Notes under the pieces: generated by a model
Seen by the model: the letters and a program-made list of their open reading frames with translations, nothing else
Databases searched by the model: none
What the model was told of the DNA's origin: nothing
Origin: Candidatus Saccharimonadota bacterium
Lineage (GTDB): Bacteria > Patescibacteriota > Gracilibacteria > UBA4473
Assembly: GCA_030429505.1 (NCBI GenBank)
Contig: JAUIFI010000001.1
Coordinates: 120,001 to 152,000 of the forward strand
Direction of reading: 5' to 3'
DNA: 32,000 nucleotides
Translations under genes and position numbers: made by a program
Shown here: piece by piece, positions 1,466 through 20,142 of the stretch
Position numbering within the stretch: position 1 is the first letter of the stretch
Layout: the number at the start of each line of letters is the position of its first letter

Positions 1466-1879
1466 ATGAAGAGATGGCACTATTGCTTATTAGTACTCAC
1501 AATGTTTGTCTTGCCCTTGGCACAAGCACAACCTCCGCCAAAAGTAACTCGATACGAAGCTCCACCAATTCTCAATGGTAATATTTTACCTGGATCATCA
1601 AACGAACAGTTTGTAAATGATCCTATTGTCGGAACTCGCTACATCACACAACGTCTAGCTCCAGGACTTGCGAACTGGTTAATAGTAGCATTACTAGCTT
1701 TATCTGTCGGAGTGTTGATTGTAGGAGGAGTAATGATGATGATAAGTTCTGGAGAATCTGATACGAAACAAAAAGCAAAGACTATGATTATATGGGCCCT
1801 TGTAGGAGTAGTGATTGGCATTATATCCTTTGCTATTGTGAATTTTGTGATTGGCATTGATTTTGAACTTATAGAATGA
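1466..1879 (+). CDS. small secreted/membrane protein, VirB2/TrbC-like ('T4SS pilin'-like) two-helix hairpin
   Basis: 137 aa. Signal peptide MKRWHYCLLVLTMFVLPLAQAQ, followed by PPPK. C-terminal hairpin: LIVALLALSVGVLIVGGVMMMISSGESDTKQKAKTMIIWALVGVVIGIISFAIVNFVIG. Size and topology match VirB2/TrbC-type pilins. Confidence 0.7.
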   Translation: MKRWHYCLLVLTMFVLPLAQAQPPPKVTRYEAPPILNGNILPGSSNEQFVNDPIVGTRYITQRLAPGLANWLIVALLALSVGVLIVGGVMMMISSGESDTKQKAKTMIIWALVGVVIGIISFAIVNFVIGIDFELIE

Positions 1880-2727
1880 AATACATAATTTGGATAACCG
1901 TCTTAATGATTTCTGTGATGAGCGGAAACCTCATCTATGCTCAGGTGCAGTTAGGAGATCTGGATAGTGCAGGAACCCCAGATGAAATAAAATTTAGTAC
2001 TGTGGAAAATGCACTTTTTCCAACTTGGCGAGGAGCCACAGCCTTGGAAAATATGCGAAAAAAAATAGAAGCAAATCTCAATGGACCAGATAGCCAAGAA
2101 TTGGAAGGATTAAAAAAGAGATTAGAAGCTGCTCAAAAAACACTAGAGCCGAAGCAGAAAGTTTTTGATAGTCTCAAAAAAGATGTAGATGAAAAAAATG
2201 AAAAACTTCAACAATATTATGAAGAAGTACGATTTACTAGAGTAGAGCTCGATGCTTGTCATGGTGGTAGCGGTCCTTGTGTAGATGAGACAGAAGATCA
2301 CAAGCAAGCATTAGCCAGAATGACAGACCAATTAAGAAAAGTAAATTTTGCCAAAGAAGATTTAGAAGATGCCAGGGTAGATATGCTTCCTGAACAAACA
2401 AATGTCGAGCGAATCAACCAAGAAATCGATGATTTCTTTCTTGAATGGCATGACTTTAATATACCAGTAGATGGAGTGATTGGGAGAAATGATGACGGAT
2501 TTTTTTTACTTCAATACATTCCGCGAATTATTGATATTTTAATTAAAATAATCGCGCCACTTTTTATGGGAATGATGATATATGCTGGAATTAGGTTCCT
2601 CTATGCTGGAGATGATGAAGAAGAGCTTTCCAAGGCCAAAGATTTTTTCCTTTACGCGTTTATTGGCATTATATTTGTCCTTTTTAGTTACTCTATACTT
2701 AAAGCAGTATATTTTCTTTTGGCATGA
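1876..2727 (+). CDS. secreted coiled-coil protein with C-terminal pilin-like hairpin anchor
   Basis: 283 aa. ATGA overlap with the upstream ORF (1876-1879). Signal-like N-terminus MKYIIWITVLMISVMSGNLIYAQ. Charged heptad-like middle (KKRLEAAQKTLEPKQKVFDSLKKDVDEKNEKLQQYYEE). C-terminal hairpin IIAPLFMGMMIYAGIRFLYAGDDEEELSKAKDFFLYAFIGIIFVLF. Confidence 0.7.
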   Translation: MKYIIWITVLMISVMSGNLIYAQVQLGDLDSAGTPDEIKFSTVENALFPTWRGATALENMRKKIEANLNGPDSQELEGLKKRLEAAQKTLEPKQKVFDSLKKDVDEKNEKLQQYYEEVRFTRVELDACHGGSGPCVDETEDHKQALARMTDQLRKVNFAKEDLEDARVDMLPEQTNVERINQEIDDFFLEWHDFNIPVDGVIGRNDDGFFLLQYIPRIIDILIKIIAPLFMGMMIYAGIRFLYAGDDEEELSKAKDFFLYAFIGIIFVLFSYSILKAVYFLLA

Positions 2728-3779
2728 AAAAGTTCTGTATAGGTTTTCTAAGTTTTATATTCCTCTTTGGAGGAATGGTTTTAGCAAAAGATGTGACACC
2801 TTACGATCTTGGAAAAGCTATGCGAGACGTACAACAAAAAAAATTCTATATCCAAGTTGAATTACCACAGCATCTACCAGGGATAGATGAGCAAAGTCTT
2901 CAAGGCAATGCCTCTGATGTAACTGTATTTCTTCAAAGATTTGCAAATGGTATTGCTGGTATTGCCGGATCCATTGCTGTTATATTTATCATTATAAATG
3001 CTTTTGGTATGGCTGGATCGGCGGGAAATACAGAAGCCATAGAAAAGGCCAAAAAAGGACTTATTTGGTCTATCGCAGGACTAGTTCTTATTATCATGGC
3101 TTATGTAATAGTAAAAACCGTGCTTTCTCTCTCTTACTCAGGACAAGAAATAGTAGCAACCAAATGTAATGATGGCATTGATAATGATGGTGACGGATTC
3201 ATTGATACAGACGATATGGATTGTTTTAGAGAGTTTGATGATAGAATGGCATATGATCCAACGATCAATAGTGAATCAGGAGCAAAGACCGAATGTATAG
3301 ACGGTATTGATAATGGTGGTGACGGATATATTGATAATAATGACTTCAACTGCTGGAGAGACTTTGATGACCGGAGCACCTACGATCCAACGATCCAAGT
3401 AGAAGATCCAGTGCCACCGAAGCCAGTATTGGAAAATTTCTTAACGGAAAGATGGTATCTTCCTGAAGGAGTTCGTATTCCAGAGAGCCTTGGATTCTTT
3501 GATCGTGAATCTATCAAGGTTTGGAGTACAGGAGCTATTCCCGATGAATCAATAGACTTAGAAGAATGGGAAAAAGTTGGAGTAGATATTGAAAACATTG
3601 ATCAATTTTCAGAAGATGATTTCCAATACCTTCGAGATACATTTGGCACTTGGAAAGATAAAGCTTTACGTGAATTGCAGGCTCTATCTGAGTTAGAAAG
3701 AAAACAATTAAGAACAGCTCCACTTCAAAAAAGAAGAGACATAATACAAGAATTTAGAAAACGGAGACCACTCTCTTGA
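2724..3779 (+). CDS. pilin-like hairpin protein with two Cys-bracketed DNDGDG (calcium-binding-like) modules
   Basis: 351 aa. ATGA overlap at 2724-2727. Signal-like N-terminus. Hairpin IAGIAGSIAVIFIIINAFGMAGSAGNTEAIEKAKKGLIWSIAGLVLIIMAYVIV. Then KCNDGIDNDGDGFIDTDDMDCFREFDDRMAYDPTI and ECIDGIDNGGDGYIDNNDFNCWRDFDDRSTYDPTI. Acidic/charged C-terminal region. Confidence 0.72.
   Translation: MKKFCIGFLSFIFLFGGMVLAKDVTPYDLGKAMRDVQQKKFYIQVELPQHLPGIDEQSLQGNASDVTVFLQRFANGIAGIAGSIAVIFIIINAFGMAGSAGNTEAIEKAKKGLIWSIAGLVLIIMAYVIVKTVLSLSYSGQEIVATKCNDGIDNDGDGFIDTDDMDCFREFDDRMAYDPTINSESGAKTECIDGIDNGGDGYIDNNDFNCWRDFDDRSTYDPTIQVEDPVPPKPVLENFLTERWYLPEGVRIPESLGFFDRESIKVWSTGAIPDESIDLEEWEKVGVDIENIDQFSEDDFQYLRDTFGTWKDKALRELQALSELERKQLRTAPLQKRRDIIQEFRKRRPLS
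3165..3401 (+). repeat. in-frame tandem duplication (2 x 43 codons) encoding the CxDGxDNxGDGxxDxxDxxC...FDDRxxYDPTI module
   Basis: The Cys codon of copy 1 is at 3165 and of copy 2 at 3294, giving a 129-nt period. The two peptide copies align residue for residue. Confidence 0.8.
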
Positions 3780-4841: not shown

Positions 4842-5348
4842 CTACCCGCCTCCCATTAATTTTCGCTTCAACTCTTCCGCTTCTTCAACACTTCCACTTT
4901 CTTCTTCAGTTTCTTCTTGCTTGATGACCGCGATATTTCGTTCTTTTTCTCGTTCTGCTTTCAGTTTTGCTACATCTTCTGAAAACTCTTGCTCTAGCTC
5001 TGAAAACTTTTTTCGTTCTTCACGAAAAATAGAAAAAAGCTCATTAATTTGATCAATACTCAACCGAGGAATAGCGTCAATAACCCTGTTTTTTTCCTCC
5101 ATTGTCAACGATATGGAGCCTTCTAACAAATCTAAAAAATCCGCTTCATCAAACTGTGTGTTGGGATGAGGGGGAATGACAAATAAATGTTTATCCCTCT
5201 TGGGAAGACGACCAGTATCTCCAGAAGATGAAGCTTTTCCTGCGATAGACGAATCCTGAGAACCTCTTAAATCATCAGAAGACGAAGCCCCATCATCTCC
5301 TCCCGAATGAGATGAAAACTGGTCTTTCTGGATATTATCGTCAGACAT
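4842..5348 (-). CDS. hypothetical protein: acidic, disordered N-terminus plus a conserved helical domain
   Basis: 168 aa with an ATG start, 13 nt downstream of the rplU stop and so probably co-transcribed. The C-terminal half, FLDLLEGSISLTMEEKNRVIDAIPRLSIDQINELFSIFREERKKFSEL, is paralogous to ORF 8932-9264. Confidence 0.65.
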   Translation of the reverse strand: MSDDNIQKDQFSSHSGGDDGASSSDDLRGSQDSSIAGKASSSGDTGRLPKRDKHLFVIPPHPNTQFDEADFLDLLEGSISLTMEEKNRVIDAIPRLSIDQINELFSIFREERKKFSELEQEFSEDVAKLKAEREKERNIAVIKQEETEEESGSVEEAEELKRKLMGGG

Positions 5349-5361
5349 GGAAAGAAAAAAA

Positions 5362-5823
5362 TTAAGACTTTTTGGAGGTCTTTTTCACGGAGGCTGGTTT
5401 TTTCGTAGCAGGTTTCTTTACGATCGCTTTTTTCGAAGAAGTATTAGCAGGTGCTTTTTTTTCAGAAGCTTTTGGTTCAGCTTTTTTCGTAGCAGGCTTC
5501 AATGCTTTCTCATTTCCAATCTGGACAATCTCAATTACACTATAGTCTTGCCGATGTCCCAAAGTACGTCGGTACCGTTTTCTAGGCTTCATTTTGAATA
5601 CTCGAATTTTTTTCCCTCGCCCATGTTCTAGTACTTTTGCCTCAATCTTCAGTCCTTCAATAAAAGGAGTTCCAATCTGAAACTGACTTCCATCTTCTTC
5701 TGATACGAGCAAGGTTTCAAATTGTACCTTTTTTCCAACTTCGACATCAAGCTTATCAACTTCAATAGTCTCACCAACACTTACAAGGGCCTGATGGCCG
5801 CCAATTTTTGCGATTGCAATCAT
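5362..5823 (-). CDS. rplU: 50S ribosomal protein L21 with Lys/Ala/Pro-rich C-terminal extension
   Basis: MIAIAKIGGHQALVSVGETIEVDKL...KIRVFKMKPRKRYRRTLGHRQDYSVIEI is a typical L21 core. ATG at 5823 is preferred because the track start at 5862 is a TTG. Tail: KPATKKAEPKASEKKAPANTSSKKAIVKKPATKKPASVKKTSKKS. Confidence 0.92.
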   Translation of the reverse strand: MIAIAKIGGHQALVSVGETIEVDKLDVEVGKKVQFETLLVSEEDGSQFQIGTPFIEGLKIEAKVLEHGRGKKIRVFKMKPRKRYRRTLGHRQDYSVIEIVQIGNEKALKPATKKAEPKASEKKAPANTSSKKAIVKKPATKKPASVKKTSKKS

Positions 5824-5917
5824 GATATTCTGATAATAATCATTCGTCGGAGGTAAATACAAATTTACGCTTTATCCCGAACAAATAGAAAATACTTTCC
5901 CAATGTATCTAATTTTA

Positions 5918-7624
5918 CTACTTTGTCAATTCATCCGCAGGAACCGTATCCGTTTCTGCTGTGTTTTGTTCTGAAGAAAGTTGAGTAGAAGTATTTCCTT
6001 GCATGTGTTTTCTGGCCACCGCCAAGAAGTCAGCTCTTTTATTAATAAAGTATTCTCCATTTTCTTTTTCTTTTCCGGATAATTTATTAACACGTTGTCT
6101 TTCATGACCTTGGCTTATTTCTTCATCATGAAATAACTTTTCAAGTTTGGCATTTATATCAGCATCATCCTTCGGAAAATCATCACGACTTACGAGATAA
6201 GTTATGAGTTCTAAAGCCGGATCTTTAAGACTGTGTGCAAAAAACTTATCTACAATAAGTTTCATCGTATCTGTTCGTAAATTTTTATGTGTGACGAGTA
6301 GTTTTGACTGATCTCGATGAGCATAATGTTTTCCATAGAGATACATCTTACCGGCCATATAATGTAAGAAATTACCATCTGCGTGGGGAGAGTTAAGAAG
6401 TTCTCCAGGGAGAAAATTTCTTTGGTCATCTGCAACCCGTGTAAACATATAAGGATGTTTTAAGAAGTCTTTTTCTTTATCAGCTCCAGTTCCTTGGAAG
6501 AAAGATTTGGCTATTCCGAGAAGAAATTTAGGCGTCATGTTTTTATGATTGAGAGCATTTGCAGCATCCACACCAGAAATGCCCAAGTCATAATTCCAGA
6601 GATAAGTCAAAGCTTCAAATGGGGTGCTTTCATTCTCACATAAAGCCATTCTTATCCACGTACCATGTGCATGCTTTGCCGTGTCTAACAGAAAAGGAAC
6701 AGGCGTGCTTGTATTCCGGCAAACTGCTTGGAGTATTTTTCCCTTGGTCGTATTCATAAATACATTTTCATACTCGTGAAAATTTTTAAGGTTGGATTCG
6801 CTATTTTCATAGGGATCAATAACTTTTTTGCCTCCCTTGAGGTGGTTTTTAACAACATAATCAAAGAATATATCCCCAATTTTTTGAAGGTCCTTAGGCT
6901 TTGTGTTGGGATTATCTGCAATAGAAAGAAGAAGTTTTGCTTGTTCTTCATCCAGTATTGAAACATGTAAAGTATCCAAATTAATCTGTGCAAGCAAGAT
7001 GTCAATCTTCTCCACAGAGATATCACTTCGTGTAGCTAAGAGTGTATTTACAGCGGAAATGTTTCTCGAAAATAAAGCATCATATTGAGAAGAGGAAAGA
7101 TCTGACTTCTTAGCTAGCTGAGAGAGCATGCCAAACTCATTTGTATTGTTCTCTATAAAAGTATCTATGAATGAATTTTTTACATTATCAGGAATATGCT
7201 TATTTTTTAACAAGTGACCATGGAGAGAATCTCCAGGGTTCCATTCGTCATGGTTTCTCTTAGATGCCATGCTCTCCCAATCCCAAGACCCATCATCCTC
7301 ATTTGGAAGATTCGCAATGAGCATCCATAGCTCAGGAAGAGTGCATTTTTTGGCAAGTTCTTTCTTTCTATGAGTAGGGATTTCTCGAAGAATAGTATGG
7401 TTTTTGACGGCAATAGCTCCTAATGCTTGAATATCGAACGTATTAATATATTGATTGAGTTTTCCTAAATCTTTGTGAAATTTACCTGATGTTAATATCC
7501 GAGTTCCATCGTTTTTAAGAACATAAGCTTGATCAGCGAAAAGTTGTGAATTGGAAACAAGTTCATTCAGAACAGTTTCGCTTTGTGGGGGAAGATGTTC
7601 ATTGTAAAGGACTAAATACCTCAC
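5918..7624 (-). CDS. alpha-solenoid (HEAT/LRV-like) repeat protein; N-terminus uncertain, reading frame open up to 7768
   Basis: 568-aa ORF from a GTG. Repeat-like units: DEDVRYLVLYNEHLP, ADNPNTKPKDLQKI, CRNTSTPVPFLLDTA, CENESTPFEALTYL, HKNMTPKFLLGIA. No signal peptide or TM segment. See the finding on the in-frame TAA at 7769-7771. Confidence 0.7.
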   Translation of the reverse strand: MRYLVLYNEHLPPQSETVLNELVSNSQLFADQAYVLKNDGTRILTSGKFHKDLGKLNQYINTFDIQALGAIAVKNHTILREIPTHRKKELAKKCTLPELWMLIANLPNEDDGSWDWESMASKRNHDEWNPGDSLHGHLLKNKHIPDNVKNSFIDTFIENNTNEFGMLSQLAKKSDLSSSQYDALFSRNISAVNTLLATRSDISVEKIDILLAQINLDTLHVSILDEEQAKLLLSIADNPNTKPKDLQKIGDIFFDYVVKNHLKGGKKVIDPYENSESNLKNFHEYENVFMNTTKGKILQAVCRNTSTPVPFLLDTAKHAHGTWIRMALCENESTPFEALTYLWNYDLGISGVDAANALNHKNMTPKFLLGIAKSFFQGTGADKEKDFLKHPYMFTRVADDQRNFLPGELLNSPHADGNFLHYMAGKMYLYGKHYAHRDQSKLLVTHKNLRTDTMKLIVDKFFAHSLKDPALELITYLVSRDDFPKDDADINAKLEKLFHDEEISQGHERQRVNKLSGKEKENGEYFINKRADFLAVARKHMQGNTSTQLSSEQNTAETDTVPADELTK

Positions 7625-7768
7625 ATCTTCATCAGGGTCATGTATTAAGGTCAGTAAAACCTCAGGGTCTGTAGAAGTTTGTGCTAGATTTTTTCTTTCA
7701 AAAACTGATTTTTGAGCATAGATATATTCGTCCTCAGAGGATTTTTGTTCAGAAGATTCTCCTGAAAC

Positions 7769-8929
7769 TTATTGATCTGTATTTTCCGTGTCATTTTCTT
7801 GAGTATCAACTGAAGTATCCTCACTATCTGTTTCATTGTGTCCCATTTCACTAGTTGATTCATCAACTTGATTCTCTGGAGATGAATCATCTTCAAGTTC
7901 AGAAGACTCATTTATTGGAAGTTCTTCTTCCAGTGTCGTATTCGAATCTGACTCTTCACCGTTATTAGCTACAGACTCGTCTTCTATTACTTGTTGATCA
8001 TTTTTCAGCGGTTCTCCTGAAATAGGAGTAATTGATTCAGAACGAGCTTGTTCGGGAGTATCAGCATCTACAGTTTTAGCTGGAGCAGAAGGATCATCTG
8101 TTTTGCTCGGAGCATCCACGTAAATAATCGTAAAATAATACCCCTCACGACCACTTCCATCCGGAGCTTTTCCTTTTGTAAAAGCAACTCCAACATGAGT
8201 CAGAGATTGTATCATAGCAGTAGTATGACCAGTATGACTTGTGAGAATTTGAAAAGCTTCATCAACAGTTTGCCCCCAAGAAGTACTTTCTATAGCATTA
8301 GTCCCGTCCAGAGCAGCCATAGCTTGAGTCCTTCTCTCAGAACGATCTTTTGTGTGCCATTTTCCTTCTGCAGCGAGAGAGTCACTTTGTTGCTGCGCTA
8401 AATCAGAAAGATCTTGATTGAGTTCTAATGGTCCTTGAGCCATTCCTGAACGATAATCATTTATGTTTTTGAGAAAAGCCTCTCGAGAAGGAACTTCTAA
8501 CTGTTCCTGACTTTCGTGCACATTATCTGATTCAGATGCAAAGGATTGGATTTTTATTTGATCTTCAACCTTAAGTTCTTCCGGAGCAATAGCATCGAGG
8601 GGAGTATCTGTATCAGAATTTAAAAGAGATTTAACATCTTCGGGTAACTCCTCTCGACCTAAAATGCCATTTAAGACGGAGTTAATGTTTTGAGCAAAAG
8701 GGGTATTGCATGTTTGTACGTTTCGTTCTGCACACTGCCTTGCAAGTGGACATGTGCTTTCTGATGAGGTTATAGTCATACGAAAGACTTGTTCTGCTTG
8801 CTGACTACAATTTGGAGTTTCAACTTCCGGAACAACATCAGGAACATCAGAAGCCGTTTCTGCGTTTTGAAACAAAACACAGCCACCTTGTGAGAAGAAA
8901 AGCCCGGACACATGCCAAAGATTCTTCAT
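7769..8929 (-). CDS. secreted CAP/SCP-like domain protein with long acidic C-terminal tail
   Basis: 386 aa with a weakly hydrophobic N-terminus. Bacterial CAP-like core: NDYRSGMAQGPLELNQDLSDLAQQQSDSLAAEGKWHT...SWGQTVDEAFQILTSHTGHTTAMIQSLTHVGVAF...YYFTIIYV. The tail is D/E/S/T-rich. Confidence 0.65.
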   Translation of the reverse strand: MKNLWHVSGLFFSQGGCVLFQNAETASDVPDVVPEVETPNCSQQAEQVFRMTITSSESTCPLARQCAERNVQTCNTPFAQNINSVLNGILGREELPEDVKSLLNSDTDTPLDAIAPEELKVEDQIKIQSFASESDNVHESQEQLEVPSREAFLKNINDYRSGMAQGPLELNQDLSDLAQQQSDSLAAEGKWHTKDRSERRTQAMAALDGTNAIESTSWGQTVDEAFQILTSHTGHTTAMIQSLTHVGVAFTKGKAPDGSGREGYYFTIIYVDAPSKTDDPSAPAKTVDADTPEQARSESITPISGEPLKNDQQVIEDESVANNGEESDSNTTLEEELPINESSELEDDSSPENQVDESTSEMGHNETDSEDTSVDTQENDTENTDQ

Positions 8930-8931
8930 AT

Positions 8932-9264
8932 TTATAGTAAGGCATTAATTGAGCTTTCTAGTTCCTGAAGCGTCGCTTCATCTTCTTTTTTGCTTTGAAC
9001 TTCTTGCTCTTCTGTCTGACCTTTGATTTGCGTTTGAAGAAAGTGAGTAAACTCACTCAAGAAATCAGGATGCTTTTCGATATAAGCGGTCAAAAGTTGA
9101 TGTTGTTTGTGATACGCCTTTTGCAAAAGACGTCCTATTATTTCCAGTTTTTCGTCAGAAAAAGTATCTATTCCATCCACAATTTTTTCCCGAACTTCAT
9201 CAGTAATGATAAAAAGTCCTCTGAGAATCTCTAAAATATCTTGTTTTGTTTTATCTTGCCCCAT
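8932..9264 (-). CDS. small helical hypothetical protein (paralog of the C-terminal half of ORF 4842-5348)
   Basis: 110 aa with an ATG start. Its stop lies 2 nt before the next start. ILEILRGLFIITDEVREKIVDGIDTFSDEKLEIIGRLLQKAYHKQHQL aligns with the domain in the 168-aa protein. Confidence 0.65.
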   Translation of the reverse strand: MGQDKTKQDILEILRGLFIITDEVREKIVDGIDTFSDEKLEIIGRLLQKAYHKQHQLLTAYIEKHPDFLSEFTHFLQTQIKGQTEEQEVQSKKEDEATLQELESSINALL

Positions 9265-9270
9265 CCTCTC

Positions 9271-9279
9271 ATTATACCA
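9271..9279 (-). promoter_or_regulatory. extended -10 promoter element (TGgTATAAT), predicted leaderless transcript for ORF 8932-9264
   Basis: The minus strand reads GTGGTATAATGAGAGG-ATG. A perfect TATAAT (9276-9271) is preceded by TGn. Only 6 nt separate the hexamer from the ATG at 9264. Confidence 0.45.
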
Positions 9280-9340
9280 CGAAAAATCAATCTATACAAG
9301 GGTTCCAAGTGATTATATTCGTCATAAAAAAGGCATGATT

Positions 9341-11296
9341 TTAATAAGGCTTTTGTTTGACCCCATTAATGGTTATATTCCCATGAGGATCATAATTACA
9401 GACCCAAACAATACCTTTTGCATTTCCACCTATCCTCTCATCATAATACTCGCCACACGTTTGTTTTCCGCAACCAACTTTTTTTGTATCTTTCCAAACC
9501 ACTTGAGTGTAATGTCCGACTGTATTCAATGGACCTCTTTCTCCTGGGGAAAGAGGTCTCCTTAAAATCCTTTCGTTAGCAGATTTACACGAGTTATTCC
9601 AGACATATCTATTGGAGGCATAGTCATAGCATTCTTTTTCAGATACCCATCCATCAGTAGCTCCATGAGCATCCACAATACTTGAAAATGACATTGATGG
9701 ACTGCCAATTCCCCAAGCCAAATTTTCTCCCCAATTTTTTTCTTTTCTTCCCAAGGTACTCCGATGATGATCACTATTATTAGCTCGATCAAATATCTCA
9801 CAGTTTTTGTTATCCTTAAGAAAATCAGCCCACTCTTGAGCATAAGTCGCAATATTCGCATCCCAAACTAAGCTCCCAACGCCTACATCTCTTCGAGCAT
9901 CATTATGAAACCTAACTATATCTTGAATTTCTTCATTTGATAATTTAGATCCTGAAGAGGGTGGGGAAGTGTCGTCATGTTCATCACCACATTCTGTCTT
10001 GGTACATTTCCCTTCGCCATCGCATTCGATCTCAATCTCTTCTCCGCCGCTACTTTCAGAACCATTATCACTATCATCTCCACCAAAAGGGTCTGGACCG
10101 GCAATACCATCTAAAGATTTATCGGGATCGGGGATGTCGTTATCGGAGTCGTCTCCTCCAAATGGATCAGGACCGGCAATGCCCCCATTTTCAAGGGGAT
10201 CTTCTCCTTCTTCAGTCGCACAGCTGCCATTCTTTTTACAGACTTCTTTAACACATTTTGTACCATCACATACGGTTTTTTCAGTTCGAGCACCTTCTTC
10301 AGGGTCTGGATCTGGAATTTCTTTTGGAAGTGCACATGATTGAGGTTCAGGTTCGGGGGGAGACATATCTTCTCCTTCACTATCAATAGTTTTGTCATAA
10401 TTTCCGCTATCATCTAGACAATCAGAGTCACCAGCATCGACTTCACCATCATTGTTATTATCTTTACCATCTTGGCATTGAGTCGTAGCCAAAGATTCGT
10501 ATACAGAATCATCAAGCTCAGGTTCACCATCATCTAGTACAGAAGCGTAGAGAGGAAACATAAACCGAAACGCAGTTTTTTCACTTCCACCACCTTTACA
10601 TCCTGGATCATCCATATCGATCAAACCATCCCCATCATTATCCATTCCATCGCTACATTCATGAGGCGTACCAAAGAAACCCGGGTTAATACTCTCCAAA
10701 AGTAAACCAATCAAAAAAAGTAAAATAATACTGGCAATGGCCTTAAAAATGTCATCTTTTGCCTCAGTCACAGATTCCGAACGAGCCCCCCCAGTCATGA
10801 TTTGAATCCCTCGAATAACAATAATCAGAACAGCAATAATTCCAATGATTGAAGCTGCATATCGATAAAAAACAGATACCAGGTTTCCGATCAACTCCAT
10901 TCCCGTTCTTCCCCGAATGGTTTTGTATTTCCCCCACGCTTCTTTGAGTTCGACACAATATCCTACATCTGTAAAACCGGCGGAAGCAGGGTCGATACAC
11001 TTGGTCGTACTTGCCCACAAGTCAAAATCAGCCGGTGGATGATCTCCATCAAACGTATAAAAATCATCAAAAGCTTTATCAAGATAAGCTACATATTCAT
11101 CATAAACTCTCTTTCTATCTCTTCCTTCAGCCGTACTGGTATCATGTGGTGGCTTAAATTCTTCCCATACAGTTTGATCTGTTTTACTAATTATAAACAT
11201 AGCCTTTGGCGGAGGTGGTGGGCGTTGAGCATCTCCCTCCGGTAATAACCAGAGAAAAGCCACTAAGAAGGAAAGAAGTATGAAAAATTTCTTCAT
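9341..11296 (-). CDS. multidomain surface protein: signal peptide, pilin-like hairpin, DNDGDG modules, acidic repeats, C-terminal CAP/SCP/PR-1 domain
   Basis: 651 aa from the ATG at 11296 (the track start at 11311 is a TTG). Signal peptide MKKFFILLSFLVAFLWLLPEGDAQ, followed by RPPPPPK. Hairpin IIGIIAVLIIVIRGIQIMTGGARSESVTEAKDDIFKAIASIILLFLIGLLL. Modules ECSDGMDNDGDGLIDMDDPGC and QCQDGKDNNNDGEVDAGDSDC. Two copies of GIAGPDPFGGDDSDN. CAP motifs FHNDARRDVGVGSLVWD, GHYTQVVWKDTKKVGCG, VWVCNYDPHGN. Confidence 0.82.
   Translation of the reverse strand: MKKFFILLSFLVAFLWLLPEGDAQRPPPPPKAMFIISKTDQTVWEEFKPPHDTSTAEGRDRKRVYDEYVAYLDKAFDDFYTFDGDHPPADFDLWASTTKCIDPASAGFTDVGYCVELKEAWGKYKTIRGRTGMELIGNLVSVFYRYAASIIGIIAVLIIVIRGIQIMTGGARSESVTEAKDDIFKAIASIILLFLIGLLLESINPGFFGTPHECSDGMDNDGDGLIDMDDPGCKGGGSEKTAFRFMFPLYASVLDDGEPELDDSVYESLATTQCQDGKDNNNDGEVDAGDSDCLDDSGNYDKTIDSEGEDMSPPEPEPQSCALPKEIPDPDPEEGARTEKTVCDGTKCVKEVCKKNGSCATEEGEDPLENGGIAGPDPFGGDDSDNDIPDPDKSLDGIAGPDPFGGDDSDNGSESSGGEEIEIECDGEGKCTKTECGDEHDDTSPPSSGSKLSNEEIQDIVRFHNDARRDVGVGSLVWDANIATYAQEWADFLKDNKNCEIFDRANNSDHHRSTLGRKEKNWGENLAWGIGSPSMSFSSIVDAHGATDGWVSEKECYDYASNRYVWNNSCKSANERILRRPLSPGERGPLNTVGHYTQVVWKDTKKVGCGKQTCGEYYDERIGGNAKGIVWVCNYDPHGNITINGVKQKPY
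10064..10183 (-). repeat. in-frame direct repeat (75-nt period) encoding GIAGPDPFGGDDSDN twice
   Basis: Copy at 10139-10183 and copy at 10064-10108, both on the minus strand inside ORF 9341-11296. Confidence 0.8.
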
Positions 11297-11300
11297 TGTT

Positions 11301-12335
11301 TTACGAAGCAATAAAGATTAAAGATAATACAAACTGGACAATAATAAGTCCCAGATAGGCAATTAAAATACCAAAGATCGTATAAATCACGATGTTCTTT
11401 CCCTTTGTCAGCTGACTGTCATCACCTCTCGACGTAATCATTATAACTGCCCCAATAATCAAAAGTAGCACTCCCAATGTTCCAAATATCTGAGTAAAAA
11501 GGCGAATCACCCGACCGAAAATACTTACCTGGTCCTTCCCGTCATCTAAAAGAGTTAACTTATGCTCGTTTCCTACACTCAACTTTACATTAACATCAAA
11601 GTTTGAGGTGGTCTGTCCCAAAAGCTTGAGACTGGCATCTTGCATCTCAACAAGGCTTTCATGAAGGCATTTTCCAAACGTCGAATCAACATAGTCCTTG
11701 TTGTTCGACAACAAGGCTGTGTAGGCTACAATGAGTTTGAGCTTTGCTTGATGTTCAAGCATTTCATCAGAAGCAGAGTTTGCTTGTCCCCATAAATCTG
11801 TTCCAGAGGATGTATCATCTCCAATAAGCCCTTCTAAATTAGTACGAACTGTTGGAGCGTGAATGGGACGGACGACGAGAGGATCTATTTCATTCGTCAC
11901 AAAATCCTCTCGCTTGCTAAGACCTTTCGTACGAGCAGCTGGATCTCCATAAGAGATCGTATGAGGGACGTCCGGATAAGCCCAGATATCAAGTCTGGTA
12001 AGCGTATCAGGATCTTTGTTTTTCCGTTTAGTATTTATAAAAGCGTCAACCTCTCTGGTAACTCGACCAAGGGCATCTTGTATTTCAGGAATCTCCCAGT
12101 TTTTTTTCTCTTTGCTAAACCTTAAAAGGGCCGCATCATACATGAGCTTTTTTTTACATTGTTCTTTAGAAAGGTCTTTCTTTAGGTTTTGGCATTGAGT
12201 CCATTCAGCATTATTTATATCCAAATCAACTCCTCCAGCCGCACAGGGTCTAGAAGTTGTTTGAGCAAAAACTGCCTCAGTAAAAAACATTACTGAAAAC
12301 AAAAAGAAAAAAACTAATGTAAAACGCTTCTGCAT
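11301..12335 (-). CDS. secreted protein with C-terminal pilin-like hairpin anchor
   Basis: 344 aa. Signal peptide MQKRFTLVFFFLFSVMFFTEAVFAQ. Ectodomain of unknown fold. C-terminal hairpin IFGTLGVLLLIIGAVIMITSRGDDSQLTKGKNIVIYTIFGILIAYLGLIIVQFVL. Its stop is 4 nt before the next gene's ATG. Confidence 0.75.
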   Translation of the reverse strand: MQKRFTLVFFFLFSVMFFTEAVFAQTTSRPCAAGGVDLDINNAEWTQCQNLKKDLSKEQCKKKLMYDAALLRFSKEKKNWEIPEIQDALGRVTREVDAFINTKRKNKDPDTLTRLDIWAYPDVPHTISYGDPAARTKGLSKREDFVTNEIDPLVVRPIHAPTVRTNLEGLIGDDTSSGTDLWGQANSASDEMLEHQAKLKLIVAYTALLSNNKDYVDSTFGKCLHESLVEMQDASLKLLGQTTSNFDVNVKLSVGNEHKLTLLDDGKDQVSIFGRVIRLFTQIFGTLGVLLLIIGAVIMITSRGDDSQLTKGKNIVIYTIFGILIAYLGLIIVQFVLSLIFIAS

Positions 12336-12354
12336 AAAATATTCAACTGAAATC

Positions 12355-12363
12355 AGTATAACA
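12355..12363 (-). promoter_or_regulatory. extended -10 element (TGtTATACT) upstream of the minus-strand pilin-like/CAP operon
   Basis: The minus strand reads TTTGTTATACTGATTTCAGTTGAATATTTT-ATG, with 19 nt between the hexamer and the ATG at 12335. No Shine-Dalgarno. Confidence 0.4.
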
Positions 12364-12385
12364 AAGCTCCAAAGAAGGGGAAATA

Positions 12386-13114
12386 TTAATTAAATCGTTC
12401 TCGAAATATTTGGTCTTTATGTATTCCCTGCGAAAGCAAAATCTGTTCTACTGATTGCACCATATTGCCATTTCCACAAATATAAAATTCTGTCTGGTCA
12501 TCATAATCTTCTGCCTTTAAAAATTCAGTAATTCGACAAGGCGATCCGTAAGGACCAAGCTTGTGAGAATCAAGTTCTCGAGAAAGACCAAGTTTGATGT
12601 TTAATTTTTTACTCCACGTTTCTAGCTCATCCAGATATGCCAAATGCTTGAGATCTTTTCCTCCATATAAAAGTGTCATCGACCGAGGAATATCTGCTTG
12701 AGCTTCATGCAAAATCATGGAACGAAATGGGGCAATGCCTGTGCTCGTGGCACAGAAAACTAACTTAACATCTTTCTTATCTGACAAACCAAAATGACCA
12801 AAAGGACCTTTAAAGGGAAAACAGTCTCCTATTTCCACTTCATTCCAAATATTGGAAGCTGTCCCTCCTGAAATTAAACGGACCACAAACTCAATCTCCT
12901 TTTCAATCGGACTTGAAGCGATTGAGTAGGATCTCCAAGCTTTATCCGTAAATTGAAGCGACAAAAATTGTCCGGGCTTAAAAGACAAGGGACCAGTAAG
13001 TTCCGTTTTCCCATCTAAAGACAGAGCTCCATCGATTGTAAAACGAAATTTTTTCGTATCACAAGCAACATCTTGTGCTAAAGTCAGTCGAAGATTTCCC
13101 TGAAAAATATTCAT
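12386..13114 (-). CDS. ferredoxin-NADP reductase-family flavoprotein (FAD/NAD(P)-binding oxidoreductase)
   Basis: 242 aa. FNR-family motifs: PGQFLSLQF, WRSYSIASSP (RxYS), GPFGHF, ATSTGIAPFRSM, FYICGNGNMV. ATGA overlap with the upstream ferredoxin gene. Confidence 0.85.
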   Translation of the reverse strand: MNIFQGNLRLTLAQDVACDTKKFRFTIDGALSLDGKTELTGPLSFKPGQFLSLQFTDKAWRSYSIASSPIEKEIEFVVRLISGGTASNIWNEVEIGDCFPFKGPFGHFGLSDKKDVKLVFCATSTGIAPFRSMILHEAQADIPRSMTLLYGGKDLKHLAYLDELETWSKKLNIKLGLSRELDSHKLGPYGSPCRITEFLKAEDYDDQTEFYICGNGNMVQSVEQILLSQGIHKDQIFRERFN

Positions 13115-13371
13115 GAGTCTTTGTGATGAGTGCGAAAAAATTTCCCCATCTCTACCGCAGTCATATGCGAATATTTTTTTTCCGTGTTCGCTTTAATATC
13201 TTCGATAACAACAGTTGGACCAAAGTCGCAATTATCCTGACACGGACACGTTTCTACTACAAAATCTTCTGGACTTGATTCGCTTTCGTTCTGTGCTCGC
13301 TCCAACGTGTATCGACTCATATTCCCAGAACAAGCCTTGCCCTGACACACTTTAATCTTATATTTTGTCAT
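13111..13371 (-). CDS. thioredoxin-like [2Fe-2S] ferredoxin
   Basis: 86 aa from the ATG at 13371 (the track start at 13380 is a TTG). Cys pattern VCQGKACSG ... ETCPCQDNCDFGPTVVI is typical of NuoE/thioredoxin-like 2Fe-2S proteins. TATATT lies 7 nt upstream of the ATG. Confidence 0.72.
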   Translation of the reverse strand: MTKYKIKVCQGKACSGNMSRYTLERAQNESESSPEDFVVETCPCQDNCDFGPTVVIEDIKANTEKKYSHMTAVEMGKFFRTHHKDS

Positions 13372-13397
13372 AATATCCAATATACTCGCTCAAAATA

Positions 13398-15383
13398 CTA
13401 GAGTGAAAACTCATAGATCTTGTCTTTCGTCAAAACATTTACCTTTTGACCTGAATCATTTACATAAAAATCCACTACCCCTGGGATATCATAAATAACT
13501 TGTTTTTTATAAGTCGCAAATCTTTCTCCTTTGGTAAAGACTAAAACACGACTATTGTCAGGATCTAGTAAATACAAGAAATCATGACCTTTCCAGGTCA
13601 ATATTTTCAAATTTTTTCCTTCAAAAGGTACGGAAGGTAAATCTCGAAAAGCATATTGTTCATTCTGACCTCGAAGTAGTTTTTGTAAAGTTCCATCATC
13701 AGACAAAACATAAATAAATCCATCAATAGTCATGCTTACTGCTCGAGATAAATCTGCTGATTGATTGTAGGGAGCGGCATTCGAATAACTTGATCGTTGA
13801 CGTTCATACTTCCAAATCTGATTTTCTACCGGATCTAAAACATAAGTAAACCGACCATAAGTCTGTACATCAATACCCTTCTTCCATGCGTCATCCTCTG
13901 TCGTCATTGGGCTGATCGTTCCATCTCGGTATTCAATCACTCGAGGAGTATCCGTGTAGTACAAAATAGTATTCTGATCTGGTCTCGTTGTAGACGTCAC
14001 AATAACTTCATTACTTCCCACGGGAATTCCTTTTTCTACAATGTTACGGATCGTTTTAAAACTTTGATTCCGATCATGGACATATAAATTACCCCGAATT
14101 TCATTCATTCCTACCGCCTCTACATTATCATTTTTCACTCCTAAATCTGCCAGAAGTTGCGGATCAACAGTACGAGCATTCTCTATCTGGAGCTTCTTGT
14201 CCTGAACATCAGCCATCACAAACCGAGCATCTGACCGAAATTCTTTCGAAGAAGAATTAAGTACAATTTTAATTGAATCTTCAGCTTTTTTTAAAGCTTC
14301 CGCTGCCGACTGCCTTTCTCCTTCAAACAAAAATCTATCTGCTTGCTTCAAGGCTTCGCGAGCAATAGACAATTTTTCTCGAATTTCTTTGGTATTTTCC
14401 GACTCGTATTGGAGCAAGAATTTTACACCAATACCCAATAAGAAAAGTATTAATACCGATCCAGCAACGACCGTTAAGTTTTTCTGAGAAGAATTCTTAT
14501 CAAAATTTTTGAAAATATTCGCAATATTAAGATTCTTTTTTAACCAAGCAATACAATCAGAAAATATATCTTTTCTCAAAAAGGGAGGAGTCTTTTGGAT
14601 TTTTCTGACGGGAGTTTTTTGCTCTTCTTCTGTAGGAGTGGGAGTTGTTTTATCTTCAGTTTTAGGAGAGTTTGAAGAGGATGCTACTTTCGCAGGCGAT
14701 TCTTTTTTCTTTGTAGATTTTGTGGCAACCACTCGAGACAAAAACCCAGCCGTCTTGCTTTTTTCCTTTTTACCAATCCCAATCGCCGTGACTAAAATAC
14801 TCTCATTACTATGCGCTGAAAGCTCATGTTTAAATAAAGATACACTTTCAGAAAAGTCGCTTCGTTCAAAAATATCTACCAGCTGGTGAGCAGTCACAAT
14901 ACGTAGCAAACGACTAGATGCAATAATGACTGTATCTTCCACAGCTACTTGCCCACTTAAAATATTGGTAAATAAAATATCTTTATGAGGAGAGTTTTCA
15001 GTAATCTGACTGACATTAGCACCTCTAACAAGATAAGCTTCAGATTCTCCGGACTGAGATAAATACAAATTATGAAAATCAAAAAACGTTACCACGATCT
15101 CGGGATTTCGAGGTACTTGAGCCTTTCTTTTCTGAATTTCTAGGTTTGCGACTTTAAGTGCATCTTCAAATAAGTCATAGCTATCAGCTATGCTAGAATT
15201 TTTAAACGCATCAACCATCGTTCCAAATACAGCCTCCGCAAAACTTCTTGAATCAACTGTGTCTTCATCGAATTTCGCTAAAAAATAAAGCTCCCGCCCC
15301 TCTCCCAAGGTTTCATGAAACGCAAAACTATAATTCCCTCCTGTGGGATTAGTCTCGAAAGTATGAACAGAAAAAGAAGACAT
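13398..15383 (-). CDS. membrane protein: degenerate PP2C-like N-terminal domain, one TM segment, beta-propeller-like C-terminal domain
   Basis: 661 aa from the ATG at 15383. The N-terminal pattern ESEAYLVRGANVSQITE ... DTVIIASSRLLRIV ... ILVTAIGI resembles the PPM fold but has no DGxGG metal motif. K/T/P-rich linker. TM segment LTVVAGSVLILFLLGIGVKFLL. C-terminal repeats of the type FTYVLDPVENQIWKY, FIYVLSDDGTLQKL, FLYLLDPDNSRVLVF. Confidence 0.7.
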   Translation of the reverse strand: MSSFSVHTFETNPTGGNYSFAFHETLGEGRELYFLAKFDEDTVDSRSFAEAVFGTMVDAFKNSSIADSYDLFEDALKVANLEIQKRKAQVPRNPEIVVTFFDFHNLYLSQSGESEAYLVRGANVSQITENSPHKDILFTNILSGQVAVEDTVIIASSRLLRIVTAHQLVDIFERSDFSESVSLFKHELSAHSNESILVTAIGIGKKEKSKTAGFLSRVVATKSTKKKESPAKVASSSNSPKTEDKTTPTPTEEEQKTPVRKIQKTPPFLRKDIFSDCIAWLKKNLNIANIFKNFDKNSSQKNLTVVAGSVLILFLLGIGVKFLLQYESENTKEIREKLSIAREALKQADRFLFEGERQSAAEALKKAEDSIKIVLNSSSKEFRSDARFVMADVQDKKLQIENARTVDPQLLADLGVKNDNVEAVGMNEIRGNLYVHDRNQSFKTIRNIVEKGIPVGSNEVIVTSTTRPDQNTILYYTDTPRVIEYRDGTISPMTTEDDAWKKGIDVQTYGRFTYVLDPVENQIWKYERQRSSYSNAAPYNQSADLSRAVSMTIDGFIYVLSDDGTLQKLLRGQNEQYAFRDLPSVPFEGKNLKILTWKGHDFLYLLDPDNSRVLVFTKGERFATYKKQVIYDIPGVVDFYVNDSGQKVNVLTKDKIYEFSL

Positions 15384-15464
15384 ACGCAAAAACTCAAATA
15401 GTTTCTCTCCCCATTTATATCACAAAATTCCCTCTGGGAAAAAAGAATTTGTCTCGAAAATTAT

Positions 15465-17982: not shown

Positions 17983-17991
17983 TGCTATACT
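17983..17991 (+). promoter_or_regulatory. extended -10 element (TGcTATACT), predicted leaderless transcript for the GT4 gene
   Basis: TGcTATACT is followed by 7 nt (caacgag) and then the ATG at 17999. No Shine-Dalgarno. Confidence 0.42.
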
Positions 17992-20035: not shown

Positions 20036-20123
20036 AATGAAATTTTTTTAATAATACATCCCTCTCATTGTCCTTGAAAAATCAAGTCAGAGCAACCAAA
20101 AAAATTTGTTTCCATGAAAAAAG

Positions 20124-20132: not shown

Positions 20133-20142
20133 GCAAGGGAGT

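What the first reader, a model, noticed from the sequence alone, without database searches (positions are those of the whole stretch)
5918..12335. Minus-strand five-gene cluster combining pilin-like anchors, two CAP domains and a solenoid protein: candidate undescribed surface display or host-interaction system
Gene order on the minus strand:
1. Signal peptide, unknown ectodomain and C-terminal pilin-like hairpin (11301-12335).
2. Signal peptide, hairpin, DNDGDG modules, acidic repeats and CAP/PR-1 domain (9341-11296), starting 4 nt after the previous stop.
3. Small helical protein (8932-9264).
4. Secreted CAP-like protein with an acidic tail (7769-8929), starting 2 nt after gene 3.
5. HEAT/LRV-like solenoid (5918-7624/7768), in frame with gene 4.

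An extended -10 element precedes gene 1 and another precedes gene 3.

The plus-strand trio (1466-3779) is paralogous, sharing the hairpin and the DNDGDG module. The mature N-termini of the 137-aa and 651-aa proteins share AQ-(R)PPPP-K.

Nothing in the window supplies energy or a channel: there is no T4SS, T2SS or sortase component. Export would therefore have to use Sec, with anchoring or polymerisation through the VirB2-like hairpin.

CAP-superfamily domains elsewhere act in extracellular sterol/lipid or protein binding and in host interaction. For a reduced-genome organism that probably lives attached to other cells, a hairpin-anchored CAP display system is a plausible host-contact apparatus. 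I am not aware of this being characterised.
Basis: partly seen in the sequence, partly recalled or inferred. Interest (0 to 1): 0.8.

Follow-up and report, generated by a model that had tools for sequence, protein, structure and literature searches.

The report
Patescibacterial pilin-like array with CAP fusion
The window holds five genes for membrane-hairpin proteins of the pilin-like family already known from the secretion systems of ultra-small Patescibacteria, and one of them unusually carries an outward-facing PR-1/CAP domain, so this is a rare variant of a known gene family, not a new five-gene system.

Summary
The description of the sequence holds. All ORFs are where stated. Five proteins (G1, G2 and the plus-strand trio) have a signal peptide plus a two-helix hairpin that hits Pfam PF18895 (T4SS_pilin). 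G2 and G4 hit CAP (PF00188). The DNDGDG modules hit NF033662.

The interpretation needs revision.

1. PF18895 hairpins are the VirB2-like pilins of Patescibacteria. Arrays of 2-11 divergent copies are already described, and one such array is essential in Southlakia.
2. Only the G1-G2 pair recurs elsewhere, on two metagenomic contigs. One of those partners also ends in CAP. G3, G4 and G5 have no relatives nearby, and G3 has its own extended -10 box.
3. G5 is an orphan with degenerate LRV repeats. Its called GTG start lies inside a repeat, and the acidic linker runs across G4's TAA, so G4 and G5 look like one ORF broken by a stop.
4. G3 and G5 have no export signal, and G4's is weak.
5. The lack of T4SS genes within 32 kb says little, because pilin genes often lie far from virB4.

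What is new is the architecture. These pilin-like hairpins are 4-9 times larger than known pilins and carry passenger ectodomains, including an intact PR-1-type CAP. I found that fusion in only two proteins.

The parts
1466..1879 (+). T1: a 137-aa pilin-sized PF18895 protein. It has a signal peptide, a short AQPPPK N-terminus and a hairpin at aa 63-137.
   Evidence: PF18895 26.6 bits and NF045849 32.2 bits. Transmembrane profile.
1876..2727 (+). T2: a 283-aa protein with a signal peptide, a coiled-coil-like ectodomain and a C-terminal PF18895 hairpin. It overlaps T1 by 4 nt.
   Evidence: PF18895 31.2 bits at aa 220-277. Coordinates.
2724..3779 (+). T3: a 351-aa protein with a signal peptide, a hairpin (aa 66-132), two acidic disulfide repeats and an unassigned C-terminal domain. 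It overlaps T2 by 4 nt.
   Evidence: PF18895 40.7 bits and TrbC 19.6 bits. NF033662 47.8 bits.
12355..12363 (-). Extended -10-like box TGTTATACT, 19 nt upstream of the G1 ATG.
11301..12335 (-). G1: a 344-aa protein with a signal peptide, an ectodomain of about 240 aa with 4 Cys and no assigned family, and a C-terminal PF18895 hairpin (aa 265-343; nt 11307-11543).
   Evidence: PF18895 26.9 bits. Orthologues lie next to the G2 orthologues in L001 (49% identity over 134 aa) and L003 (31% over 332 aa). The single-sequence model is poor apart from the hairpin.
9341..11296 (-). G2: a 651-aa protein. In order it has a signal peptide (1-23), an N-terminal ectodomain, a hairpin (aa 132-203; nt 10688-10903), two acidic disulfide repeats (aa 214-233 and 274-293), Cys-rich and acidic GIAGPDPFGGDDSDN repeats (aa 372-411; nt 10064-10183), and a PR-1-type CAP domain (aa 450-651; nt 9344-9949).
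9271..9279 (-). Extended -10-like box TGGTATAAT, 6 nt upstream of the G3 ATG. It would give a separate, possibly leaderless, G3-G4(-G5) transcript.
8932..9264 (-). G3: a 110-aa acidic protein with no signal peptide or transmembrane segment and no family match. Its link to G1-G2 is not supported.
7769..8929 (-). G4: a 386-aa protein with a weak N-terminal hydrophobic segment, a 4-Cys region, a divergent CAP domain (aa 154-270; nt 8120-8470) and an acidic tail that ends at a TAA.
   Evidence: CAP 41.9 bits. GAPR-1 alignment. Hydrophobicity.
5918..7768 (-). G5: a degenerate LRV-like helical-repeat ORF. The called start is GTG at 7624, but the frame is open back to G4's stop, and the first repeat straddles that GTG. 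It is probably the 3' part of a former G4-G5 gene.

Best explanation
The window carries two arrays of Patescibacteria-type VirB2-like pilin paralogues (PF18895): T1-T2-T3 on the plus strand and G1-G2 on the minus strand. Most of these are 'pilins with passengers'.

**How each protein is made and placed.** Each has a Sec signal peptide that is cleaved. The two hydrophobic helices then insert as an N-out/C-out hairpin, leaving a short Lys-bearing loop on the cytoplasmic side. Everything before and after the hairpin therefore lies outside the single membrane.

**G2.** G2 holds a PR-1-type CAP domain with an intact His/Glu tetrad. The CAP sits at the end of a stalk of about 240 residues that is acidic, disulfide-rich and probably Ca2+-binding.

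**G1.** G1 is G2's conserved partner and displays a different ectodomain of about 240 aa.

**Most likely role.** Like the divergent pilin arrays of other Patescibacteria, these are variable host-contact subunits. They would be handled by a monoderm-type T4SS encoded elsewhere in the 1.02-Mb genome, as minor, tip or base subunits, or as membrane-resident partners, alongside the pilin-sized T1.

**G3-G5.** This is a neighbouring, lineage-specific transcription unit and not part of the apparatus. G4 and G5 look like one CAP-linker-LRV gene interrupted by an in-frame TAA.

**Shown.** Domain content, predicted topology, paralogy, conservation of the G1-G2 pair, and non-conservation of G3-G5.

**Inferred.** Signal-peptide cleavage, surface exposure, T4SS dependence, and a host-contact function.
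For: - PF18895 is the top hit for all five hairpins, and T3 also hits TrbC/VirB2 weakly. There are weak hits to the Mbov_0395 pilin-like conjugal protein family.
- The hairpin alignment shows 16-28% identity and one invariant loop Lys. This matches the published arrays, which average 25% identity, and the rule for solved VirB2/TraM/TraA pilins of two hydrophobic helices plus a positively charged loop.
- The G2 model gives the hairpin at pLDDT 80-87 and the CAP domain above 90. Foldseek matches PR-1 at TM 0.87. H511, E524, E553 and H595 are conserved.
- G2's 20 Cys all lie outside the signal peptide and hairpin.
- G1-G2 orthologue pairs occur in L001/L002 and L003, and P0002 has the same hairpin-repeats-CAP order.
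- G3, G4 and G5 are absent from all related loci. G5 is an orphan. There is a promoter-like box in front of G3.
- Literature: pilin arrays are widespread and often far from virB4. The array is essential in Southlakia.
Against: - No T4SS gene lies in the 32-kb window or on the short related contigs. The rest of the genome could not be read.
- Mature G1, G2, T2 and T3 are about 4-9 times larger than any solved VirB2-family pilin (64-74 aa). Dense packing into a VirB2-type filament is therefore doubtful.
- PF18895 scores sit at the gathering threshold for G1, G2 and T1.
- A profile of the hairpins finds no solved pilin by sequence.
- Related Gracilibacteria loci encode 2-3 hairpins fused in one chain, which fits a membrane-resident role better than a filament.
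- The taxon of the window is inferred, not shown.
Confidence: 0.5

Rival explanations
1. Static anchors, no pilus and no T4SS. The PF18895 hairpin has been re-used purely as a Sec-inserted two-helix membrane anchor, in place of sortase or lipobox anchoring. G1-G2 and T2-T3 are then ordinary surface proteins: a CAP, Ca-binding stalks and coiled coils held on the cell membrane, possibly as hetero-oligomers formed through the hairpins.
For: - The passenger domains are large compared with the 64-74-aa solved pilins.
- No T4SS genes lie near the pair in three genomic contexts.
- Related MAGs encode multi-hairpin single-chain proteins.
- Passengers are shuffled on a conserved hairpin: P0003 lacks CAP, and the N-terminal domains differ.
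Against: - T1 is a classical pilin-sized member in the same window.
- Across Patescibacteria the family is tied to VirB4-bearing genomes, and it is essential within a T4SS cluster.
- The invariant loop Lys is conserved as in pilus-forming pilins.
Confidence: 0.28
2. G1-G5 form one dedicated five-gene, T4SS-independent apparatus for surface display and host interaction. It is built around two CAP domains, with a small helical protein and a solenoid as partners.
For: - The spacing is tight: 4 nt, 76 nt and 2 nt, and G5 is in frame with G4.
- Two CAP domains lie within 3 kb.
- All five genes are on one strand.
Against: - Only G1-G2 recur together. In both related contexts the gene downstream is tilS.
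- G3, G4 and G5 have no homologue in the fetched loci, and G5 has none in 1.84 billion representatives.
- The two CAP domains are not close paralogues (E=0.03) and belong to different subtypes.
- G3 and G5 lack export signals.
- There is a separate promoter-like box before G3.
- G4-G5 look like a broken gene.
Confidence: 0.08
3. The pilin assignment is spurious. The hairpins are generic paired transmembrane helices that reach PF18895's threshold through hydrophobic composition, and the proteins are unrelated membrane proteins.
For: - Three of the five scores are within 0.3 bits of the gathering score.
- T1 also matches several unrelated transmembrane families weakly.
- There is no match to solved pilins.
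Against: - The same family is the top hit five times in one window, while no other ORF matches.
- T3 scores 40.7 bits, 14 above threshold, and hits TrbC and NF045849 independently.
- All share one layout: a signal peptide, two helices and a short loop with an invariant Lys.
- Orthologues in L001 and L003 also hit PF18895.
Confidence: 0.05

Closest known systems
VirB2-like pilin arrays of Patescibacteria (PF18895). Examples are the essential six-pilin array in the Southlakia epibionticum T4SS locus and the array of small signal-peptide proteins described in Nanosynbacter TM7x.
   Same: The Pfam family is the same. All have an N-terminal signal peptide plus a two-helix hairpin. The genes sit in tandem arrays of very divergent paralogues (16-28% identity here, 25% on average in the literature). 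The location is chromosomal, in a small genome.
   Different: Four of the five members here are 283-651 aa and carry large N- or C-terminal passenger domains. The described arrays consist of small proteins. No virB4, trsD, prgI or virB6 gene lies within 32 kb. The papers I read do not mention a CAP fusion.
Conjugative pilins VirB2, TraM, TraA and TrbC of diderm T4SSs.
   Same: All have two hydrophobic helices joined by a short loop with a positive residue, and all are inserted by Sec with a cleaved leader. T3 gives a sub-threshold TrbC hit.
   Different: There is no significant sequence match to solved pilins. The mature sizes are 4-9 times larger. The host is probably a monoderm. Pilus formation is unknown.
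PR-1 / CAP superfamily (plant PR-1 and P14a, yeast Pry1, GAPR-1, and bacterial 'pathogenesis-related family 1' proteins).
   Same: The G2 C-terminal domain matches by sequence (P14a E=7e-14), by fold (TM 0.87 to PDB entry 9lyt) and by a conserved His/Glu tetrad.
   Different: The nearest relatives are free-standing secreted proteins of about 200 aa, and none of the best 120 listed carries PF18895. Here the domain is tethered to a pilin-like hairpin by a long acidic stalk. G4's CAP is a different, degenerate subtype in which both Glu appear to be replaced.
CPR-enriched 'transmembrane + CAP' protein family 3.6k.fam08817 (Meheust et al., bioRxiv 10.1101/335083).
   Same: [quoted passage not shown]
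   Different: I could not test whether G2 or G4 belongs to that family, because no sequences were available. The paper does not link the transmembrane part to VirB2-like pilins.
Minor or tip subunits with adhesin domains in other pili, such as sortase-pilus tip adhesins and type IV pilus minor pilins. This is an analogy of function only.
   Same: A polymerisation or anchor module is fused to a variable binding domain and encoded next to a plain major subunit.
   Different: The folds and assembly machinery are unrelated. This is a functional analogy drawn from general knowledge and was not tested here.

Membership tests
PF18895 T4SS_pilin (Patescibacteria VirB2-like pilins) | Match to the Pfam HMM at or above the gathering score of 26.6 bits. 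| tested here: met
   T3 scores 40.7, T2 31.2, G1 26.9 and T1 26.6. G2 scores 26.3, which is 0.3 bits below threshold.
PF18895 T4SS_pilin (Patescibacteria VirB2-like pilins) | N-terminal Sec signal peptide followed by two hydrophobic helices joined by a short polar loop with a positive residue. | tested here: met
   The hairpin alignment has an invariant Lys. The G2 model has helices 132-167 and 173-203 at pLDDT 80-87. No dedicated signal-peptide predictor was available.
PF18895 T4SS_pilin (Patescibacteria VirB2-like pilins) | Small, pilin-sized mature protein. Solved VirB2, TraM and TraA are 64-74 aa. | tested here: not met
   Only T1 (137-aa precursor) is pilin-sized. T2 is 283 aa, G1 344, T3 351 and G2 651.
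PF18895 T4SS_pilin (Patescibacteria VirB2-like pilins) | Tandem array of sequence-divergent paralogues. | tested here: met
   There are three adjacent genes and two adjacent genes, with 16-28% identity in the hairpin. The literature reports arrays of 2-11 genes averaging 25% identity.
PF18895 T4SS_pilin (Patescibacteria VirB2-like pilins) | The genome also encodes VirB4 and other monoderm-type T4SS parts. | not testable with these tools
   None is present in the 32-kb window. The 1,023,206-bp source contig could not be fetched.
PF18895 T4SS_pilin (Patescibacteria VirB2-like pilins) | Assembles into an extracellular filament. | not testable with these tools
   This needs multimer modelling or experiment. 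It is unproven even for the described Patescibacteria arrays.
CAP / PR-1 superfamily (PF00188) | HMM match above the gathering score of 21.1 bits. | tested here: met
   G2 scores 70.1 bits and G4 41.9 bits.
CAP / PR-1 superfamily (PF00188) | Alpha-beta-alpha sandwich fold. | tested here: met
   For G2 aa 450-651 the pLDDT is above 90. Foldseek gives probability 1.0 and TM 0.87 to PR-1 (PDB entry 9lyt). G4 was not modelled.
CAP / PR-1 superfamily (PF00188) | Conserved His-Glu-Glu-His tetrad. | tested here: met
   In G2, H511, E524, E553 and H595 fall in invariant or nearly invariant columns of a 46-sequence alignment. In G4 the phmmer alignment to GAPR-1 keeps both His but places R and T at the two Glu positions, so G4 does not meet this feature, subject to the confidence of that alignment.
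CAP / PR-1 superfamily (PF00188) | Extracytoplasmic location. | tested here: inconclusive
   For G2 it is predicted from the signal peptide, the N-out/C-out hairpin and 20 ectodomain Cys. G4's N-terminal hydrophobic segment is weak (1.48), although 4 Cys follow it.
LRV repeat proteins (PF01816) | HMM match above the gathering score of 21.6 bits. | tested here: not met
   The G5 extended ORF scores 17.6 bits. An exhaustive phmmer search does give repeat-level hits (E from 9e-11 to 6e-4) to proteins that are strong LRV members. G5 is therefore LRV-like and degenerate, not a demonstrated member.
Acidic double-disulfide repeat (NF033662) | HMM match above the cut-off of 41 bits. | tested here: met
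   T3 scores 47.8 bits. G2 scores 40.0, which is 1 bit below the cut-off but has the same C-x-DG-x-DNDGDG-x-ID-x-D-x-x-C pattern.

The most novel reading that the evidence does not exclude
In this lineage the VirB2-like hairpin has become a modular carrier. Passenger domains are fused to either end and presented on, or at the base of, a T4SS-derived filament in a monoderm. The PR-1-type CAP domain of G2 keeps its intact tetrad and has a YDYASNRY loop at the place of the sterol-binding motif of Pry1/PR-1. That placement rests on my own recollection and was not tested. On this reading the CAP domain captures host membrane lipids for an organism that cannot make its own, and hands them to a pilin that, like all solved VirB2 pilins, packs 1:1 with phospholipid. 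This would be a lipid-scavenging pilus, not a DNA or effector conduit.
Probability: 0.12. Interest if true: 0.8.

Novelty: new variant of a known kind. Interest (0 to 1): 0.38.

Why it matters
Patescibacteria depend on host cells, and their T4SS with its puzzling pilin array is essential in the one species tested, yet nobody knows what the pilins do. Members that carry recognisable passenger domains give a handle on that function. They argue that at least some 'pilins' are presentation devices for host-binding modules, and they name a concrete, expressible domain to test for ligand binding: G2 aa 450-651. The architecture is rare, with two proteins found, and it sits in an uncultured lineage. 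The immediate impact is therefore modest.

Tried and rejected
- **Source genome.** Exact look-ups of G2 and G1 found no indexed contig. The genome-contig scan returned only four distant hairpin loci. T4SS genes elsewhere in the genome therefore could not be checked, and the taxon stays inferred.
- **More G1-G2-like loci.** The first metagenome scan, using a G2 hairpin alignment, found nothing. The second, using the G1 alignment, found one ordinary 125-aa pilin.
- **Homologues of G5.** The word-based search and the exhaustive search gave only repeat-level LRV matches.
- **Sequence link to solved pilins.** A profile of nine hairpins against PDB sequences hit only unrelated transmembrane proteins at E above 0.1.
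- **G1 structure.** The single-sequence model was too poor (pLDDT 44.7) for a fold search.
- **AFDB fold search** for other hairpin+CAP architectures: the library was unavailable.
- **G3 compared with the acidic 168-aa protein at 4842-5348:** no similarity.
- **The two CAP domains as recent duplicates:** rejected (E=0.03).
- **Alternative genetic code (TGA as a sense codon):** rejected for this window, because TGA ends 6 of the 28 genes tabulated.
- **Rfam and tRNA scans:** nothing found.
- **Tandem Repeats Finder** on the cluster found nothing. The protein-level repeats were recovered with the repeat finder.
- **Pilin lengths.** The supplement of PMC12102498 holds no lengths, so the frequency of long PF18895 proteins could not be taken from it.

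Full report
**What is in the sequence**

On the minus strand:
- G1 is 11301-12335 (344 aa).
- G2 is 9341-11296 (651 aa).
- G3 is 8932-9264 (110 aa).
- G4 is 7769-8929 (386 aa).
- G5 is 5918-7624 (568 aa), with the frame open up to 7768.

On the plus strand, T1 (1466-1879), T2 (1876-2727) and T3 (2724-3779) overlap each other by 4 nt.

Pfam gives PF18895 (T4SS_pilin) as the top hit for G1, G2, T1, T2 and T3, at 26.3-40.7 bits against a gathering score of 26.6. T3 also hits TrbC/VirB2 weakly. CAP (PF00188) is found in G2 at 70.1 bits and in G4 at 41.9 bits.

NCBIfam recognises the DNDGDG modules as acidic double-disulfide repeats (NF033662). It also gives sub-threshold hits to the Mbov_0395 pilin-like conjugal-transfer family.

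A profile built from the hairpins finds only these five ORFs in the window. All five have a strongly hydrophobic N-terminal segment and two transmembrane helices. G3 and G5 have neither, and G4's N-terminus is only weakly hydrophobic.

The rest of the window is housekeeping: LCP, L21, FNR-like, MraY-like GT4, class I aldolase, DnaB, MurA-type, Lgt and V/A-ATPase subunits. It contains no T4SS, T2SS or sortase protein. TGA is used as a stop codon, so the code is standard.

**G2 in detail**

A model built with 46 sequences gives a confident hairpin (helices 132-167 and 173-203, pLDDT 80-87) and a confident C-terminal domain (aa 450-651, pLDDT above 90). The segments between them are of low confidence.

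Foldseek places the C-terminal domain in the PR-1/CAP fold, with probability 1.0 and TM 0.87 to a plant PR-1. Sequence search agrees (P14a, E=7e-14).

The CAP His/Glu tetrad (H511, E524, E553, H595) falls in invariant or nearly invariant alignment columns. The 20 Cys all lie outside the signal peptide and hairpin.

With a cleaved signal peptide and an N-out/C-out hairpin, both the N-terminal domain and the stalk-plus-CAP lie outside the membrane. Surface display of CAP is therefore a reasonable reading of G2. It rests on predicted topology.

**What the hairpins are**

The literature shows this is a known kind.
- PF18895/VirB2-like pilins were found in 1,948 VirB4-containing Patescibacteria assemblies.
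- 441 arrays of 2-11 tandem, highly divergent pilin genes (mean 25% identity) were catalogued (PMC12102498).
- The array was first seen in TM7x as a run of small signal-peptide proteins (bioRxiv 10.1101/258137).
- The array is essential in Southlakia epibionticum (PMC10633639 and PMC12857230).

The five hairpins here share 16-28% identity and one invariant loop Lys. Solved VirB2, TraM and TraA are likewise two hydrophobic helices with a positively charged, lumen-facing loop, but they are only 64-74 aa when mature. A hairpin profile finds no solved pilin by sequence, so the link to VirB2 rests on the Pfam and NCBIfam profiles.

**Is it a five-gene system?**

The evidence says no.
- G2 has only two real relatives among 5.8 billion clusters. 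P0002 (770 aa) has the same order of hairpin, acidic repeats and CAP. P0003 (739 aa) has the hairpin and repeats without CAP.
- On both contigs a G1 orthologue sits immediately upstream. The gene that follows is tilS, not G3-G5.
- tblastn of G3, G4 and G5 against every fetched locus finds nothing.
- G5 has no homologue by word search. The exhaustive search of 1.84 billion representatives gives only repeat-level matches to proteins that are strong LRV-repeat members.
- A TGGTATAAT box lies 6 nt before the G3 ATG and a TGTTATACT box 19 nt before the G1 ATG. This fits two transcription units: G1-G2 and G3-G4(-G5).
- The co-directional run on the minus strand extends from 4842 to 15389 and includes rplU and redox genes. 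Shared orientation is therefore not specific to the five genes.
- The two CAP domains are not close paralogues. G2's is the PR-1 type. G4's is divergent, and by alignment to GAPR-1 it has lost both Glu of the tetrad.

**The G4/G5 junction**

G4 ends in an acidic Ser/Asp/Glu-rich tail and a TAA. The same frame continues without a stop, in the same composition (VSGESSEQKSSEDEY...), and then runs into an LRV-like unit, NLAQTSTDPEVLLTLIHDPDEDVRYLVLYNEHLP. The called GTG start lies inside that unit. There is no ATG, GTG or TTG between 7768 and 7624.

In the exhaustive search, the best-matching stretch of the query for many hits is aa 18-68 of the extended ORF, which straddles the called start at aa 49. 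The simplest reading is one former gene of about 1003 aa, encoding CAP, linker and LRV repeats, split by a nonsense change or an assembly error. Read-through or a non-canonical start cannot be excluded.

**How rare is the CAP fusion?**

The nearest relatives of the G2 CAP domain are free-standing 'pathogenesis-related family 1' proteins of about 200 aa from Myxococcota, Leptospiraceae, cyanobacteria and plants. None of the best 120 listed carries PF18895.

The hairpin+CAP architecture was seen only in G2 and P0002. Two metagenome scans added nothing. The genome-contig scan returned only distant hairpin loci from MAGs labelled Peribacteria, Gracilibacteria or Patescibacteria.

A CPR-enriched family of CAP proteins with transmembrane segments was noted in 2018 without characterisation. 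Whether G2 or G4 belongs to it could not be tested. I found no paper in the library that describes a pilin-CAP fusion.

**Does the absence of T4SS genes matter?**

Not much. The window is 32 kb of a 1,023,206-bp contig. In Patescibacteria the pilin gene is near virB4 in only 1,135 of 1,948 assemblies. In Gracilibacteria the TrsD and VirB3 genes are mostly away from virB4, and VirB6 is undetectable by profiles. I could not fetch the rest of the genome.

**Best explanation and rivals**

The best explanation (confidence about 0.5) is two arrays of Patescibacteria-type VirB2-like pilin paralogues, most of which carry passenger ectodomains. G1-G2 is a conserved pair. G2 displays an intact PR-1-type CAP on an acidic, disulfide-rich stalk. 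A T4SS elsewhere in the genome probably handles them as variable host-contact subunits.

The main rival (about 0.28) is that the hairpin is only a static membrane anchor. The size of the passengers favours this. So do the 2-3-hairpin single-chain proteins seen in related code-25 MAGs.

The five-gene autonomous system gets about 0.08 and a spurious pilin assignment about 0.05.

**Verdict**

It is a new variant of a known kind: pilin-like hairpins fused to passenger domains, including CAP. It is of moderate interest.

Noticed in passing
window 7624-7771 (minus strand): G4's TAA stop is followed in frame by 48 codons with no ATG, GTG or TTG. They continue the acidic linker and begin an LRV-like repeat, and the annotated GTG start of G5 lies inside that repeat. 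G4 and G5 look like one gene of about 1003 aa (CAP, linker, LRV) split by a single stop codon. The cause could be a mutation, an assembly error or read-through.
   Followed up: partly
L004 7139-7894, L005 5380-6351, L006 3606-4691, L007 3-848: MAG loci labelled Gracilibacteria, Peribacteria or Patescibacteria encode single ORFs with two or three tandem PF18895-like hairpins if TGA is read as Gly. The in-frame TGAs sit where paralogous units have Gly (SG*GDEE against GGGDEE). Multi-hairpin 'pilins' in one chain are hard to reconcile with a classical filament subunit. The MAG labelled Peribacteria (L004) also shows a sense TGA.
   Followed up: partly
window-wide; for example 9271-9279, 12355-12363 and 17983-17991: Shine-Dalgarno-like sequences are nearly absent: 2 of the 30 gene upstream regions examined have one. 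TGnTATAMT extended -10 boxes lie 6-19 nt upstream of three start codons (G3, G1 and the GT4 gene at 17999). This suggests leaderless or very short-leader mRNAs in this organism. The window has 5 motif matches against 2.07 expected by chance.
   Followed up: partly
window 15510-17957 (+): An 815-aa polytopic membrane protein with many predicted transmembrane segments and C-terminal HEAT_2 repeats (73.8 bits). Its function is unknown.
   Followed up: no
window 20068-22215 (+): A 715-aa protein with Big_1/invasin-D3, Big_13 and fn3 domains. It is another probable surface or adhesin protein close to the pilin-like arrays.
   Followed up: no
window 13398-15389 (-): A 663-aa protein with one central transmembrane helix (aa 302-330) and no Pfam family at E below 0.01. 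It lies co-directionally upstream of the ferredoxin-like and FNR-like genes and G1.
   Followed up: no
window 29363-31834 (-): V/A-type ATPase subunit genes (F, C/AC39, E and the c-ring subunit) are present, and not an F-type ATPase. With class I aldolase, LCP and Lgt this fits a small monoderm (CPR-like) genome, but the taxon was not established directly.
   Followed up: no
window 9626-9649 (G2 aa 557-564): The sequence YDYASNRY (an aromatic-x-aromatic-xxxx-aromatic pattern) lies in the G2 CAP domain. From memory, the 'caveolin-binding' sterol-binding loop of Pry1/PR-1 lies at that place. It is followed by a low-confidence insertion (aa 571-582).
   Followed up: no
L001 6894-9113 and L003 2387-4699: The G2 orthologues P0003 and P0002 have different N-terminal ectodomains and weak thrombospondin type 3 (TSP_3) repeat hits. 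P0003 lacks CAP altogether. Passenger domains are therefore swapped on a conserved hairpin-plus-acidic-repeat core.
   Followed up: partly
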